NCBI RefSeq assembly: GCF_003334815.1
Contig: NZ_QOWO01000006.1
Length of the DNA: 64,000 bases
Reading direction: 5' to 3' (one strand)
Origin: Escherichia coli
Lineage (GTDB): Bacteria > Pseudomonadota > Gammaproteobacteria > Enterobacterales > Enterobacteriaceae
Position numbers and translations under genes: made by a program. The notes beneath the pieces are model-generated. The model was not told where the DNA came from. It searched no databases and worked only from the letters and a program-made list of their open reading frames with translations. The first letter of the stretch is position 1. Each line of letters opens with the position of its first letter. Shown here piece after piece: positions 8,635 through 22,120 of the stretch.

Positions 8635-9888
8635 ATGTTAAAGCGTGAAATGAACATTGCCGATTATGATGCCGAACTGTGGCAGGCTATGGAGCAGGAA
8701 AAAGTACGTCAGGAAGAGCACATCGAACTGATCGCCTCCGAAAACTACACCAGCCCGCGCGTAATGCAGGCGCAGGGTTCTCAGCTGACCAACAAATATG
8801 CTGAAGGTTATCCGGGCAAACGCTACTACGGCGGTTGCGAGTATGTTGATATCGTTGAACAACTGGCGATCGATCGTGCGAAAGAACTGTTCGGCGCTGA
8901 CTACGCTAACGTCCAGCCGCACTCCGGCTCCCAGGCTAACTTTGCGGTCTACACCGCGCTGCTGGAACCAGGTGATACCGTTCTGGGTATGAACCTGGCG
9001 CATGGCGGTCACCTGACTCACGGTTCTCCGGTTAACTTCTCCGGTAAACTGTACAACATCGTTCCTTACGGTATCGATGCTACCGGTCATATCGACTACG
9101 CCGATCTGGAAAAACAAGCCAAAGAACACAAGCCGAAAATGATTATCGGTGGTTTCTCTGCATATTCCGGCGTGGTGGACTGGGCGAAAATGCGTGAAAT
9201 CGCTGACAGCATCGGTGCTTACCTGTTCGTTGATATGGCGCACGTTGCGGGCCTGGTTGCTGCTGGCGTCTACCCGAACCCGGTTCCTCATGCTCACGTT
9301 GTTACTACCACCACTCACAAAACCCTGGCGGGTCCGCGCGGCGGCCTGATCCTGGCGAAAGGTGGTAGCGAAGAGCTGTACAAAAAACTGAACTCTGCCG
9401 TTTTCCCTGGTGGTCAGGGCGGTCCGTTGATGCACGTAATCGCCGGTAAAGCGGTTGCTCTGAAAGAAGCGATGGAGCCTGAGTTCAAAACTTACCAGCA
9501 GCAGGTCGCTAAAAACGCTAAAGCGATGGTAGAAGTGTTCCTCGAGCGCGGCTACAAAGTGGTTTCCGGCGGCACTGATAACCACCTGTTCCTGGTTGAT
9601 CTGGTTGATAAAAACCTGACCGGTAAAGAAGCAGACGCCGCTCTGGGCCGTGCTAACATCACCGTCAACAAAAACAGCGTACCGAACGATCCGAAGAGCC
9701 CGTTTGTGACCTCCGGTATTCGTGTAGGTACTCCGGCGATTACCCGTCGCGGCTTTAAAGAAGCCGAAGCGAAAGAACTGGCTGGCTGGATGTGTGACGT
9801 GCTGGACAGCATCAATGATGAAGCCGTTATCGAGCGCATCAAAGGTAAAGTTCTCGACATCTGCGCACGTTACCCGGTTTACGCATAA
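8635..9888 (+). CDS. glyA: serine hydroxymethyltransferase, 417 aa
   Basis: Track ORF 8629..9888; start [12 protein letters not shown]...; PLP-lysine motif [14 protein letters not shown]. Confidence 0.97.
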
Positions 9889-9925
9889 GCGAAACGGTGA
9901 TTTGCTGTCAATGTGCTCGTTGTTC

Positions 9926-10028
9926 ATGCCGGATGCGGCGTGAACGCCTTATCCGGCCTACAAAACTTTGCAAATTCAATATATTGCAATCTCCGTGTAG
10001 GCCTGATAAGCGTAGCGCATCAGGCAAT
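9926..10028. repeat. BIME: two inverted REP elements downstream of glyA
   Basis: GCCGGATGCGGCGTGAACGCCTTATCCGGCCTAC and inverted copy GTAGGCCTGATAAGCGTAGCGCATCAGGC. Confidence 0.85.
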
Positions 10029-10085
10029 TTTTCGTTTATGATCATCAAGGCTTCCTTCGGGAAGCCTTTCTACGTTATCGCGCCA

Positions 10086-11280
10086 TCAAATCTGTCGTAA
10101 CTGCGCCTCAACATACAAATAGCCAATTCCCAGCACCTGTTGTGCGCGGCTTAATTGCCCAAAGCCAATTTGCGTCGCTTTCACGCTCGGTCCTTCGTCG
10201 CGGTCGAACGGGTTAAATCCTGTCTGGCGAATAATAGTATTAAGCCAGTTCTCACCAAAGGCACAACTGCGACCGTACAACCAAATCTGATTAATATTGA
10301 GGATGTTGAGGAAGTTATACAGACTCAAACCAATGGCATTGGCAGAGCGATCAACCCAGCTGGTGATCCACGGTTCTCCACTTTGCCAGGCAGCGATTAA
10401 CTGCGCTGTAGTCAGTTTTTCAGGATCAAGTTGAGTACTAACCGGTTGTGATTTTAGCCATACCCGCGCCTGTTTTTTTAATGCGCTTAACGAGGCGACG
10501 GTTTCCAGGCAGCCATAACGTCCACAGTCGCAGACGACGCCATCCGGATTAACGATGGTGTGACCAATCTGTCCGCTACCATACAAACTGCCGCGATAAA
10601 TTTGCTCGTTAATCACGAACGACGAGCCAATGCCGTAATCAACGTTGATCACGCAGAAATCCCGTTCCTGCGAATTATTTTGCCATTTCTCCGCCAGCGC
10701 CAGCATCACGCAGTCATTATCGACCATCACCCGAATGCCGAGCTTCTCTTCCAGCAGATATTTCACCTCCACCGGCGTTGTCCACGGCGCTTGCGGCATG
10801 GTTTGCGACACGCCGGTCACAGGATCAACCTGACCGTGGATTGCCAACGCCAGGTTGATGGTATGGTCCGGCCACAATTTACGGTGGCGATGCCAGCATT
10901 TTTTCGATTTCGGACAGCAGCGCCTGCGGCGTCGGTGCATCAATCTGTAAATACTCAAATTCACCTTTCGGACTTAAACAAGCATTAGCAACCTGACACT
11001 CAATACTGGTGGGCGTCACGTTCAGGCACAGCGTCCAGTCACCTTCCGGCGCAATCAGCCATGTACCGCTACTATGCCCGCGCGTCTGGCTTTCATCGTC
11101 AATATTCACCACCCGTTTTTCGCTTTCCAGTTCCTGCAAAATATTACTGACTGCCGGAATCGAAATTTGCGCCAGCCGGGCCAGCGTTGATTTATTGGCG
11201 CGCTTTTGCCGGTACAGCAGTTCCAGAATCACGCATTTGTTATGGTGGCGAATCTGTTGATTATTAATGCAGGCTCTCAT
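10086..11280 (-). pseudogene. yphH: ROK-family (NagC/XylR-like) transcriptional regulator, reading frame interrupted by an apparent +1 frameshift near 10879-10890
   Basis: Two overlapping minus-strand ORFs in different frames (10879..11286 N-terminal HTH part; 10086..10964 C-terminal ROK sugar-kinase fold); the span is one nt longer than an intact 397-codon gene. Confidence 0.5.
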
Positions 11281-11397
11281 CTTCACTAAACCTTGTTTAG
11301 TTAATTGCGTGATTATTCCGCGAAAACATTGCCAGATTGTTCAATACACTGCCACAAATCTTTTAATTCAGTATGTCTTGTTAATATTGAGGGCACC

Positions 11398-14300
11398 ATG
11401 ACTCCAGTAAAAGTGTGGCAAGAGCGCGTTGAGATCCCGACCTATGAAACCGGGCCGCAGGATATACATCCCATGTTCCTGGAAAATCGCGTTTATCAGG
11501 GATCGTCCGGCGCGGTTTATCCCTACGGCGTGACCGATACGCTGAGCGAGCAGAAAACCCTGAAATCCTGGCAGGCGGTGTGGCTGGAAAACGACTACAT
11601 CAAAGTGATGATCCTGCCGGAACTGGGCGGTCGGGTGCATCGCGCGTGGGATAAAGTGAAACAGCGCGATTTTGTTTATCACAATGAAGTCATTAAACCT
11701 GCGCTGGTGGGGCTGCTGGGGCCGTGGATTTCCGGTGGGATTGAGTTTAACTGGCCGCAACATCATCGCCCGACCACCTTTATGCCCGTTGATTTCACCC
11801 TCGAAGCCCATGAAGACGGTGCACAGACGGTGTGGGTAGGCGAAACGGAGCCGATGCATGGTTTACAGGTGATGACAGGTTTCACCCTGCGCCCTGACCG
11901 GGCGGCGCTGGAAATCGCCAGCCGCGTCTATAACGGGAACGCCACGCCGCGTCATTTCTTGTGGTGGGCCAACCCGGCAGTGAAAGGGGGGGAAGGGCAT
12001 CAGAGCGTCTTCCCGCCGGATGTAACGGCGGTGTTTGATCACGGCAAACGGGCCGTCTCCGCTTTCCCCATCGCTACCGGCACTTACTACAAAGTGGACT
12101 ACTCCGCTGGAGTGGACATTTCTCGCTATAAAAATGTGCCTGTTCCAACCTCATATATGGCCGAAAAATCGCAGTACGATTTTGTCGGCGCGTGGTGTCA
12201 CGATGAAGATGGCGGTTTGCTGCACGTTGCCAACCACCATATTGCGCCAGGTAAAAAACAGTGGAGTTGGGGACACAGTGAATTTGGCCAGGCGTGGGAT
12301 AAGAGTCTGACCGACAATAACGGCCCGTATATCGAACTGATGACCGGTATTTTTGCCGATAACCAGCCCGATTTTACCTGGCTTGATGCTTACGAAGAGA
12401 AGCGTTTTGAGCAGTATTTCCTGCCTTATCATTCTTTGGGCATGGTGCAAAATGCCTCCCGCGATGCGGTGATAAAACTCCAGCGTAGTAAGCGGGGGAT
12501 TGAGTGGGGGCTGTATGCCATCTCTCCGTTGAACGGATACCGCCTGGCGATCCGCGAAATCGGTAAATGCAACGCGTTACTTGATGATGCCGTGGCACTG
12601 ATGCCTGCGACCGCCATCCAGGGCGTGTTGCACGGTATCAATCCTGAAAGGCTGACCATTGAGCTCTCCGATGCCGACGGCAATATTGTACTGAGTTATC
12701 AGGAACATCAGCCGCAAGCGTTGCCGTTACCGGACGTCGCCAAAGCGCCACTGGCAGCACAAGACATTACCAGTACAGATGAAGCCTGGTTTATCGGTCA
12801 GCATCTGGAGCAATATCATCACGCCAGCCGTTCACCGTTCGATTACTACCTGCGCGGCGTGGCGCTGGACCCGCTGGATTATCGCTGTAACCTGGCGCTG
12901 GCGATGCTGGAATATAACCGCGCAGATTTCCCGCAAGCGGTGGCGTATGCCACTCAGGCTCTGAAACGCGCACATTCGCTGAACAAAAATCCGCAGTGCG
13001 GACAGGCGAGTTTGATTCGCGCCAGTGCTTACGAACGTCAGGGACAATATCAACAAGCCGAAGAGGATTTCTGGCGTGCGGTCTGGAGCGGCAACAGCAA
13101 AGCCGGTGGCTATTATGGCCTGGCACGACTGGCGGCGCGTAATGGTAACTTCGACGCTGGTCTGGATTTTTGCCAACAAAGTCTTCGCGCCTGCCCAACC
13201 AATCAGGAAGTGCTTTGCCTGCATAATCTGCTGCTGGTGTTAAGTGGTCGTCAGGACAACGCGCGTGTGCAGCGCGAGAAACTGCTGCGCGATTATCCGC
13301 TGAACGCCACTCTGTGGTGGCTGAACTGGTTCGATGGTCGTAGCGAATCAGCTCTCGCGCAGTGGCGCGGTCTGTGTCAGGGACGCGACGTTAACGCCCT
13401 GATGACCGCCGGGCAACTGATTAACTGGGGAATGCCCACCCTGGCGGCAGAGATGCTGAACGCACTGGACTGCCAGCGCACGCTGCCGCTTTACCTGCAA
13501 GCCAGCTTGCTGCCGAAAGCCGAACGTGGCGAACTGGTCGCAAAAGCCATTGATGTCTTCCCGCAGTTTGTCCGTTTCCCGAATACGCTGGAAGAAGTGG
13601 CGGCGCTGGAGAGTATTGAAGAGTGCTGGTTTGCTCGCCATTTACTAGCTTGCTTCTACTACAACAAACGTAGCTACAACAAAGCCATTGCCTTTTGGCA
13701 ACGTTGCGTAGAGATGTCGCCGGAGTTTGCCGACGGCTGGCGCGGGTTAGCGATCCATGCGTGGAATAAGCAACACGATTATGAGCTGGCCGCGCGTTAT
13801 CTTGATAATGCTTATCAGCTTGCGCCGCAGGATGCACGTCTGCTTTTCGAACGGGATTTGCTGGATAAGTTAAGTGGAGCCACACCGGAGAAACGACTGG
13901 CGCGTCTGGAAAATAATCTGGAAATTGCGCTGAAACGCGACGACATGACCGCAGAACTGCTCAATTTGTGGCATCTCACGGGTCAGGCAGACAAAGCGGC
14001 GGACATTCTCGCCACGCGCAAATTCCACCCGTGGGAAGGCGGGGAAGGGAAGGTCACCAGTCAGTTTATCCTCAACCAGTTATTACGCGCCTGGCAGCAT
14101 CTTGATGCCAGACAGCCGCAGCAGGCCTGCGAACTGCTTCATGCCGCGCTGCATTATCCGGAGAATTTAAGCGAAGGCCGTTTACCGGGGCAAACTGATA
14201 ACGACATCTGGTTCTGGCAGGCGATATGCGCCAACGCGCAGGGCGATGAAACTGAAGCGACGCGTTGTTTACGTCTGGCGGCGACCGGCGATCGCACTAT

Positions 14301-14679
14301 TAACATTCACAGTTATTACAACGATCAGCCGGTTGATTATCTCTTCTGGCAAGGGATGGCGCTGCGACTGCTGGGCGAACAACAAACCGCACAGCAACTG
14401 TTTAGTGAAATGAAACAGTGGGCGCAAGAGATGGCGAAAACCAGTATCGAAGCGGATTTCTTTGCCGTCTCGCAACCTGACTTGTTGTCGCTGTATGGCG
14501 ATTTACAACAGCAGCATAAAGAAAAATGCCTGATGGTGGCGATGCTGGCGTCCGCGGGACTCGGGGAGGTTGCGCAATATGAGTCTGCTCGCGCTGAATT
14601 GACGGCGATTAATCCGGCTTGGCCGAAAGCGGCATTATTCACCACCGTGATGCCTTTTATTTTTAACCGCGTTCACTAA
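11398..14679 (+). CDS. yphG: large conserved protein of unknown function with C-terminal TPR-like repeats, 1093 aa
   Basis: Track ORF 11305..14679; start chosen at ATG 11398 preceded by GAGGG RBS; C-terminal half shows repeated TPR-like helical pattern. Confidence 0.85.
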   Translation: MTPVKVWQERVEIPTYETGPQDIHPMFLENRVYQGSSGAVYPYGVTDTLSEQKTLKSWQAVWLENDYIKVMILPELGGRVHRAWDKVKQRDFVYHNEVIKPALVGLLGPWISGGIEFNWPQHHRPTTFMPVDFTLEAHEDGAQTVWVGETEPMHGLQVMTGFTLRPDRAALEIASRVYNGNATPRHFLWWANPAVKGGEGHQSVFPPDVTAVFDHGKRAVSAFPIATGTYYKVDYSAGVDISRYKNVPVPTSYMAEKSQYDFVGAWCHDEDGGLLHVANHHIAPGKKQWSWGHSEFGQAWDKSLTDNNGPYIELMTGIFADNQPDFTWLDAYEEKRFEQYFLPYHSLGMVQNASRDAVIKLQRSKRGIEWGLYAISPLNGYRLAIREIGKCNALLDDAVALMPATAIQGVLHGINPERLTIELSDADGNIVLSYQEHQPQALPLPDVAKAPLAAQDITSTDEAWFIGQHLEQYHHASRSPFDYYLRGVALDPLDYRCNLALAMLEYNRADFPQAVAYATQALKRAHSLNKNPQCGQASLIRASAYERQGQYQQAEEDFWRAVWSGNSKAGGYYGLARLAARNGNFDAGLDFCQQSLRACPTNQEVLCLHNLLLVLSGRQDNARVQREKLLRDYPLNATLWWLNWFDGRSESALAQWRGLCQGRDVNALMTAGQLINWGMPTLAAEMLNALDCQRTLPLYLQASLLPKAERGELVAKAIDVFPQFVRFPNTLEEVAALESIEECWFARHLLACFYYNKRSYNKAIAFWQRCVEMSPEFADGWRGLAIHAWNKQHDYELAARYLDNAYQLAPQDARLLFERDLLDKLSGATPEKRLARLENNLEIALKRDDMTAELLNLWHLTGQADKAADILATRKFHPWEGGEGKVTSQFILNQLLRAWQHLDARQPQQACELLHAALHYPENLSEGRLPGQTDNDIWFWQAICANAQGDETEATRCLRLAATGDRTINIHSYYNDQPVDYLFWQGMALRLLGEQQTAQQLFSEMKQWAQEMAKTSIEADFFAVSQPDLLSLYGDLQQQHKEKCLMVAMLASAGLGEVAQYESARAELTAINPAWPKAALFTTVMPFIFNRVH

Positions 14680-20893: not shown

Positions 20894-22120
<1,227 letters not shown>

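What the first reader, a model, noticed from the sequence alone, without database searches (positions are those of the whole stretch)
10860..10900. ROK-family regulator gene yphH is split by an apparent +1 frameshift
The N-terminal HTH-containing ORF (to stop TAA at 10881-10879) and the C-terminal ROK-fold ORF are both recognisably parts of one NagC/XylR-like regulator but are in different frames, overlapping around 10879-10964. The span from the likely start (11280) to the stop (10086) is 1195 nt, one nucleotide more than the 1194 nt of an intact 397-codon gene. Removing a single base near 10880-10890 fuses them into ...EIEKMLAS(H/P)..KLWPDHTINLALAIHGQ.... It is either a genuine pseudogenisation of the regulator of the adjacent yph sugar locus or a sequence error; either way it changes how the neighbouring operon should be interpreted.
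Basis: partly seen in the sequence, partly recalled or inferred. Interest (0 to 1): 0.5.

Follow-up and report, generated by a model that had tools for sequence, protein, structure and literature searches.

The report
One-base frameshift pseudogene of yphH
In this E. coli strain the uncharacterised sugar-regulator gene yphH is broken by one extra A in a run of five, a rare, ordinary and probably genuine loss-of-function mutation already flagged as a pseudogene in public annotation.

Summary
The split is real in the sequence. yphH (minus strand, 10086-11280) is 1195 nt, and reads as a 133-aa N-terminal ORF plus a C-terminal ROK remnant in another frame.

The extra base lies in a homopolymer, A6 instead of A5 in the mRNA sense (plus-strand T-run 10899-10904), not at 10880-10890. 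Deleting one A gives a protein identical to K-12 YphH (397 aa), with junction ...EIEK|CWHRHRKLWPDH..., not ...EIEKMLAS...

A5 is the state in about 5,400 RefSeq complete E. coli genomes, including divergent phylogroups. Only strain 52F4 has A6, and PGAP calls its yphH "frameshifted".

The window has no other 1-nt indel against near-identical references. It appears to be contig QOWO01000006.1:32001-96000 of draft GCA_003334815.1. A6 also occurs on other SNP backgrounds in clean assemblies, and as noise in four error-ridden long-read assemblies.

Best reading (about 0.8): replication slippage produced a recent null allele. It keeps the winged helix-turn-helix but loses nearly all of the ROK domain. 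An assembly error (about 0.17) cannot be excluded without reads. That YphH controls the divergent yphGFEDCB operon is only an inference.

This is ordinary and of low interest.

The parts
10086..11280 (-). yphH pseudogene: 1195 nt from the ATG to the native stop, one nt longer than intact yphH
   Evidence: Same coordinates and a 'frameshifted' flag for yphH in strain 52F4. Intact 1194-nt gene in MG1655 and WP5-S17-ESBL-10.
10899..10904 (-). Frameshift site: a homopolymer of six A in the mRNA sense (six T on the plus strand). It is five in intact alleles and spans codons 126-128.
   Evidence: Alignments. Indel lists. Script.
10879..10881 (-). Premature stop codon TAA, reached six codons after the shift
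10879..11280 (-). Truncated product ORF: 133 aa, made of 127 native residues plus the tail MLASPP. It contains the wHTH and linker and about 45 residues of the ROK domain.
   Evidence: The exact 133-aa sequence is already in public databases (STM37666.1, CAM9110414.1, UniRef100_A0A377DNF4).
10086..10898 (-). Out-of-frame remnant encoding native residues 128-397 (most of the ROK domain, including CDCGRYGCLE). No Shine-Dalgarno-like sequence was seen by eye before its in-frame start codons.
11282..11304 (.). 23-bp near-palindrome TTAACTAAAC-AAG-GTTTAGTGAA directly upstream of the yphH ATG. It is a candidate operator, given as context only.
   Evidence: 10-nt arms, 90% complementary, 3-nt spacer. 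The 117-nt intergenic region is invariant in four other strains.
11398..14679 (+). yphG, the first gene of the divergent yphGFEDCB cluster. It is intact (1093 aa) and is the presumed, untested target of YphH.
   Evidence: no indel versus references.

Best explanation
A genuine +1 insertion arose by strand slippage in the A5 run of yphH (now A6). It shifts the frame after Lys127 and ends translation six codons later.

Shown:
- The product is a 133-aa fragment with the winged helix-turn-helix and linker.
- It lacks almost the whole ROK sugar-sensing and oligomerisation domain.

Inferred from how Mlc, NagC and XylR work:
- The fragment is a null or near-null allele.
- The gene carries no second lesion, so the event is recent.
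- It is confined to a few closely related phylogroup-A-like backgrounds.
- If YphH represses the divergent yphGFEDCB genes, as its family and gene order suggest, they would be derepressed.
- The A6 run allows at most a trace of full-length protein, or reversion by a second slippage.
For: - The lesion is exactly one A in a homopolymer, and removing it gives MG1655 YphH residue for residue.
- The assembly is otherwise clean. Against WP5-S17-ESBL-10 over 48.6 kb, the only other length difference apart from an IS421 insertion in that reference is a (CTGCG)n repeat in hcaD, and 174 homopolymers of 5 nt or more lie in that stretch.
- The last 25 kb is the same length as at least 25 complete genomes.
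- The window maps to 32001-96000 of a 198-kb draft contig. That contig size suggests short-read data, which is an inference.
- The same A6 occurs with no other indel on different SNP backgrounds. These are GCA_037967625.1 (2 SNPs in 20.4 kb), RefSeq complete genome 52F4 (9 SNPs in 50 kb, PGAP 'frameshifted'), and Logan contigs from SRR23081622 (+9 similar), SRR3951465 and SRR25057213.
- Domain mapping places the break about 45 residues into the ROK domain. It falls in the helix that aligns with Mlc 'ISHIDQFFIRHQKKL'. The 133-aa fragment hits no NCBIfam model.
Against: - No reads are available, and a homopolymer is also the classic site of sequencing error.
- Four public assemblies carrying the same A6 are error-ridden long-read assemblies, with 32-121 gap openings per 20 kb, so A6 does arise as noise.
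- Logan contigs are not guaranteed to be short-read. Another yphH 'frameshift' allele in Logan (P0007) sits beside split yphG, glyA and glnB and is absent from the 5,321 complete genomes matched.
- The 100% match to GCA_003334815.1 is the same assembly as the window, not a replicate.
- Only 1 of 5,426 complete genomes has A6.
- The functional consequences are entirely inferred.
Confidence: 0.8

Rival explanations
1. Sequencing or assembly artefact: the strain really has A5 and an intact yphH, and the extra A is a homopolymer miscall that survived consensus or polishing.
For: - The site is a homopolymer.
- The identical change appears in four assemblies that are plainly full of indel errors (L007-L010).
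- The sequencing platforms of the window's assembly and of the Logan runs are unknown.
- The gene has no other sign of decay.
- A6 is seen in only 1 of 5,426 complete genomes.
Against: - It is the only 1-nt indel in the window. Against WP5-S17-ESBL-10 (positions 1-48,661) only this one of 174 runs of 5 nt or more differs, and over 39,001-64,000 the window is the same length as many complete genomes. The window holds 230 such runs in all.
- A 198-kb draft contig suggests short reads, for which A5-to-A6 consensus errors are rare (inference).
- The same allele is present in several otherwise indel-free assemblies on different SNP backgrounds.
- In the demonstrably noisy Logan contigs L017-L021 the run is A5 and the error lies elsewhere.
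Confidence: 0.17
2. Functional recoding or switching. One version is that full-length YphH is still made, by +1 ribosomal slippage of tRNA-Lys on A-AAA-AAU or by transcriptional slippage on the A6 run. The other is that the run acts as a phase-variable on/off switch for the regulator.
For: - tRNA-Lys on AAA can re-pair perfectly one base downstream, and the next codon is then TGC, the native frame. This can be read directly from the sequence.
- A6 and A5 interconvert by a single slippage step.
Against: - The state is not conserved. A5 is fixed across phylogroups, with one exception in 5,426 genomes.
- No stimulatory element was seen by eye. The in-frame next codon is the common AUG, so there is no hungry-codon pause.
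- By general knowledge, six A is shorter than the tracts that support efficient transcriptional slippage or phase variation.
Confidence: 0.03

Closest known systems
ROK-family repressors Mlc, NagC and XylR (solved structures 1Z6R and 3BP8 for Mlc, 4IJA for XylR)
   Same: - The intact YphH has the same architecture: an N-terminal winged HTH, a linker, and a ROK sugar-kinase-like domain with a CxCGxxGCxE zinc motif (CDCGRYGCLE).
- It aligns to Mlc over residues 9-333.
- It lies next to, and divergent from, a sugar transport and catabolism cluster.
   Different: - It is not an equivalog of either protein. NCBIfam scores are 111.6 against a cut-off of 650 for NagC, and 106.5 against 530 for Mlc.
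- It forms its own small clade, with an RG motif rather than GR in the linker, and has no known operator, ligand or target (PMC4288165).
- In this window the gene is truncated after residue 127.
Strain-specific regulator pseudogenes made by single-base frameshifts in E. coli (own knowledge, e.g. glpR and ilvG in K-12 derivatives), which PGAP labels 'frameshifted'
   Same: - A single-nucleotide indel in an otherwise intact, conserved, non-essential gene.
- Restricted to a few strains.
- The identical allele in strain 52F4 is already annotated 'frameshifted'.
   Different: Nothing of substance. The phenotype is unknown because YphH itself is uncharacterised.
Homopolymer-driven phase-variable (contingency) genes
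   Same: The frame is set by the length of a mononucleotide run.
   Different: - The run is only 5-6 nt.
- One state is essentially fixed in the species.
- There is no evidence of within-strain switching.

Membership tests
ROK-family transcriptional repressor (NagC/Mlc/XylR type), for the ancestral yphH gene | ROK domain (Pfam PF00480) | tested here: met
   PF00480 matches residues 116-337 with E=1.8e-32 on the intact protein. The C-terminal remnant P0016 still hits ROK models.
ROK-family transcriptional repressor (NagC/Mlc/XylR type), for the ancestral yphH gene | N-terminal winged helix-turn-helix that distinguishes repressors from ROK kinases | tested here: met
   MarR-type HTH at residues 16-53 (E=7e-4) and HTH_24 (E=0.013). 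The full-length alignment to Mlc starts at residue 9.
ROK-family transcriptional repressor (NagC/Mlc/XylR type), for the ancestral yphH gene | Zinc-binding cysteine motif CxCGxxGCxE in the ROK domain | tested here: met
   CDCGRYGCLE is present in the restored protein and aligns with Mlc CYCGNHGCLE.
NagC or Mlc orthologue (equivalog) | Score above the curated NCBIfam equivalog cut-off | tested here: not met
   111.6 bits against 650 for NagC, and 106.5 against 530 for Mlc. YphH is a separate clade (PMC4288165).
Pseudogene by frameshift | Reading frame disrupted relative to intact orthologues, with the lesion identifiable | tested here: met
   One extra A in the A-run. Removing it restores 100% identity to WP_001200769.1.
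Pseudogene by frameshift | The lesion is present in the organism's DNA, not only in the assembly | not testable with these tools
   No reads are available. Indirect support comes from a clean window and the same allele in other clean assemblies.
Programmed ribosomal frameshift or transcriptional-slippage gene | The split arrangement is conserved among orthologues | tested here: not met
   5,425 of 5,426 complete genomes lack the window's A6 sequence at this site. The MG1655, WP5-S17-ESBL-10, EPEC, O157:H7 and TUM13881 alleles examined are A5 single ORFs.
Programmed ribosomal frameshift or transcriptional-slippage gene | Slippery sequence plus a stimulatory element | tested here: inconclusive
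   A-AAA-AAU allows +1 re-pairing of tRNA-Lys (read from the sequence). No stimulator was seen by eye, and efficiency was not measured.
Phase-variable contingency locus | Long simple repeat, with both frame states common within the species | tested here: not met
   The run is 5-6 nt, and A6 occurs in 1 of 5,426 complete genomes.

The most novel reading that the evidence does not exclude
Loss of YphH may be a recurrent, selected event rather than drift. In this reading the A5 run is a mutational hot spot that has been hit independently on several ST10-like backgrounds (this isolate, 52F4 from a calf, GCA_037967625.1, several SRA runs). The result would be constitutive expression of the yphGFEDCB sugar-uptake and catabolism genes. 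The perfectly conserved intergenic region with its 23-bp palindrome would be the operator.
Probability: 0.08. Interest if true: 0.35.

Novelty: already known. Interest (0 to 1): 0.1.

Why it matters
It matters little. For annotation, yphH in this genome should be labelled a frameshifted pseudogene, with the lesion at 10899-10904, and not as two genes. For biology, a natural yphH-null strain could be a convenient starting point for finding what the uncharacterised YphH regulator and the yph sugar locus do. The allele itself is a routine, rare, recent loss-of-function change. It is already present in public databases and flagged there by PGAP.

Tried and rejected
1. **Widespread homopolymer errors in the window.** Rejected. 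Base-by-base comparison with WP5-S17-ESBL-10, 52F4 and MG1655 found no other 1-nt indel, and the last 25 kb has equal length in many genomes.

2. **The GCA_003334815.1 match as replication.** I first took the 100% identical locus (L022/L027) as independent confirmation. The coordinates (window position + 32000 = contig position) show it is the same contig, so I withdrew it.

3. **YphB T226M (SNP 20131) as a clone marker.** It failed. Most carriers are a lineage about 1% divergent, with intact yphH.

4. **The 153-aa N-terminal fragments as a second natural frameshift allele.** Rejected as evidence of recurrent pseudogenisation. Both possible 1-nt deletions are absent from the 5,321 complete genomes matched. 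The Logan contigs carrying the allele also have split yphG, glyA and glnB, which points to systematic read errors.

5. **Single versus multiple origins of A6.** Not resolvable. The carriers differ by private SNPs around one core haplotype.

6. **Promoter scan of 9880-11480.** It found no sigma-70-like site.

7. **Literature on the assembly accessions.** The search found nothing.

8. **Scans of genome contigs or metagenome contigs.** Not run, because the E. coli collection had already answered the conservation question.

Full report
**What is in the sequence.** The window is an E. coli chromosome segment running purL-qseEGF-glnB-hmp-glyA-yphH-yphGFEDCB-yphA-hca-...-guaA. On the minus strand two ORFs occupy the yphH position: 10879-11286 (135 aa from a GTG, 133 aa from the annotated ATG at 11280) and 10086-10964. 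From the ATG at 11280 to the stop at 10086 is 1195 nt, against 1194 nt for intact yphH in MG1655. The reported split is therefore real.

**Where the lesion is.** Alignment with MG1655 and with strain 52F4 shows one difference in the region. The mRNA-sense run in GAAATCG-AAAAAA-TGCTGG has six A here and five in MG1655. On the plus strand this is the T-run at 10899-10904.
- Deleting one A gives a 397-aa protein identical to MG1655 YphH, WP_001200769.1.
- The native junction is ...ALLSEIEK-CWHRHRKLWPDHTINLALAIHGQ...
MLASPP is the out-of-frame tail before the TAA at 10879-10881.
- The product is 127 native residues plus those six.

**Is the split state conserved?** No.
- A 361-nt query found yphH in all 5,426 RefSeq complete E. 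coli genomes, and only NZ_CM147848.1 (strain 52F4, from a calf in Switzerland) matched without a gap.
- A 65-nt query around the run gave one 100% match among the 5,405 genomes that matched.
- PGAP annotates yphH in 52F4 as 'frameshifted'.
- EPEC O127:H6, O157:H7 and TUM13881 differ from the window at 21-61 positions of yphH, and all have A5 and an intact 397-aa gene.
- Cluster members from E. albertii and E. marmotae are also 397 aa.

**Real mutation or artefact?** The window is not a noisy assembly.
- Against WP5-S17-ESBL-10 over 48.6 kb it shows seven differences apart from an IS421 insertion in that reference: five SNPs, the yphH A, and a 10-nt difference in a (CTGCG)n repeat in hcaD. That stretch holds 174 homopolymers of 5 nt or more.
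- Positions 39001-64000 have the same length as the top 25 listed complete genomes.
- The window equals positions 32001-96000 of contig QOWO01000006.1 (198,223 bp) of draft GCA_003334815.1, at 100.000% identity over 22.6 kb with a constant offset of 32,000. That hit is the same assembly, not a replicate. The contig size suggests short-read data, which is my inference.

Independent occurrences of A6 are as follows.
- The exact 133-aa product is already public (STM37666.1, CAM9110414.1, UniRef100_A0A377DNF4), and 20 contigs carrying it were read.
- Four carriers are long-read assemblies with 32-121 gap openings per 20 kb and shattered neighbouring genes (L007-L010). There A6 is simply noise.
- The other carriers have no other indel. 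GCA_037967625.1 has 2 SNPs in 20.4 kb, with 3 similar contigs. Logan SRR23081622 has 4 SNPs in 10.4 kb, with 9 similar contigs. SRR3951465 and SRR25057213 are identical to the window over 7.4 and 4.7 kb.
- 52F4 has 9 SNPs in 50 kb.
- These are different SNP backgrounds around one K-12-like core haplotype. One origin or several cannot be told apart.

One caution applies to the Logan evidence. Logan contigs can be derived from long reads. A different yphH 'allele' (153 aa, a 1-nt deletion 8 nt upstream) sits in contigs where yphG, glyA and glnB are also split. It is absent from the 5,321 complete genomes matched. In those noisy contigs the run is A5.

Weighing all this, I put a genuine mutation at about 0.8 and an artefact at about 0.17.

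**What it does.**
- Shown: intact YphH has a MarR-type wHTH (residues 16-53) and a ROK domain (116-337).
- Shown: it aligns with Mlc (3BP8, 1Z6R) over residues 9-333, including the zinc motif CDCGRYGCLE.
- Shown: the break falls in the helix LSEIEKCWHRHRKLW, which aligns with Mlc ISHIDQFFIRHQKKL, about 45 residues into the ROK domain. The fragment keeps the wHTH and linker but loses the sugar-binding and oligomerisation body. It matches no NCBIfam model.
- Inferred: ROK repressors bind their 23-bp operators as oligomers assembled through the ROK body (family knowledge; PMC4288165 for the operators), so the fragment should be inactive.
- Inferred: the downstream remnant has no Shine-Dalgarno-like sequence before its in-frame starts (by eye). 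It would also lack the first strands of the fold.
- Inferred: the absence of any second lesion means the event is recent.
- Inferred: slippage of tRNA-Lys +1 on A-AAA-AAU would recreate the native frame, but nothing suggests this is efficient.

**Effect on the neighbours.** yphH is monocistronic and convergent with glyA, so no polarity is expected. YphH is described only as an uncharacterised third ROK repressor of E. coli, forming its own small clade (PMC4288165, PMC9308461). It is not a NagC or Mlc equivalog. That it controls the divergent yphGFEDCB cluster is an inference from gene order.

Some weak support exists for that inference. The 117-nt intergenic region is identical in four other strains, three of them from lineages whose yphH differs at up to 61 of 1194 positions. 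It contains a 23-bp near-palindrome (11282-11304), the length of NagC/Mlc operators but with TA rather than TT/AA at positions ±5,6. If YphH is a repressor, this strain would express the locus constitutively. This is untested.

**Verdict.** This is an ordinary, rare, recent homopolymer frameshift that inactivates a non-essential, uncharacterised regulator. The same allele is already flagged in public annotation. Novelty: already known. Interest: low.

Noticed in passing
window 21597-21621 (within hcaD, 20894-22111, minus strand): A perfect pentanucleotide repeat (CTGCG)n varies between near-identical genomes. The window has n=5, giving an in-frame 405-aa HcaD. WP5-S17-ESBL-10 and 52F4 have n=3, and PGAP calls hcaD frameshifted there. 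K-12 MG1655 has n=2, giving 400 aa. The repeat flips hcaD in and out of frame on a very short evolutionary scale.
   Followed up: partly
window 11281-11397, palindrome at 11282-11304: The 117-nt yphH-yphG intergenic region is 100% identical in MG1655, EPEC O127:H6, O157:H7 and TUM13881. In the last three the flanking coding DNA differs by 1.6-5%. The region holds a 23-bp near-palindrome TTAACTAAAC-AAG-GTTTAGTGAA abutting the yphH start. This is a candidate YphH operator or autoregulatory site.
   Followed up: partly
L017-L021 (Logan contigs), equivalent to window about 10905-10915: Many Logan contigs share a 1-nt deletion in TCCGAAATC of yphH (153-aa product) together with split yphG, glyA and glnB. 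The deletion is absent from the 5,321 complete genomes matched. It looks like a reproducible long-read basecalling error, and is a warning against treating Logan contigs as short-read truth.
   Followed up: yes
window 20131 (yphB codon 226): A C-to-T change gives YphB T226M relative to the close relatives (K-12, WP5-S17-ESBL-10, 52F4). The same residue is native in a lineage about 1% divergent, so the cause may be a small recombination patch or convergence.
   Followed up: partly
window about 9900-10060 (between glyA and yphH): These look by eye like REP-type repeats. Three independent Logan contigs (L011-L013) all end at window 10003, as expected for k-mer assemblies breaking at a repeat.
   Followed up: no
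window about 28630 (csiE), compared with L003 28802-29914: The closest complete relative, WP5-S17-ESBL-10, carries an IS421 insertion that disrupts csiE. The window and 52F4 have csiE intact.
   Followed up: no
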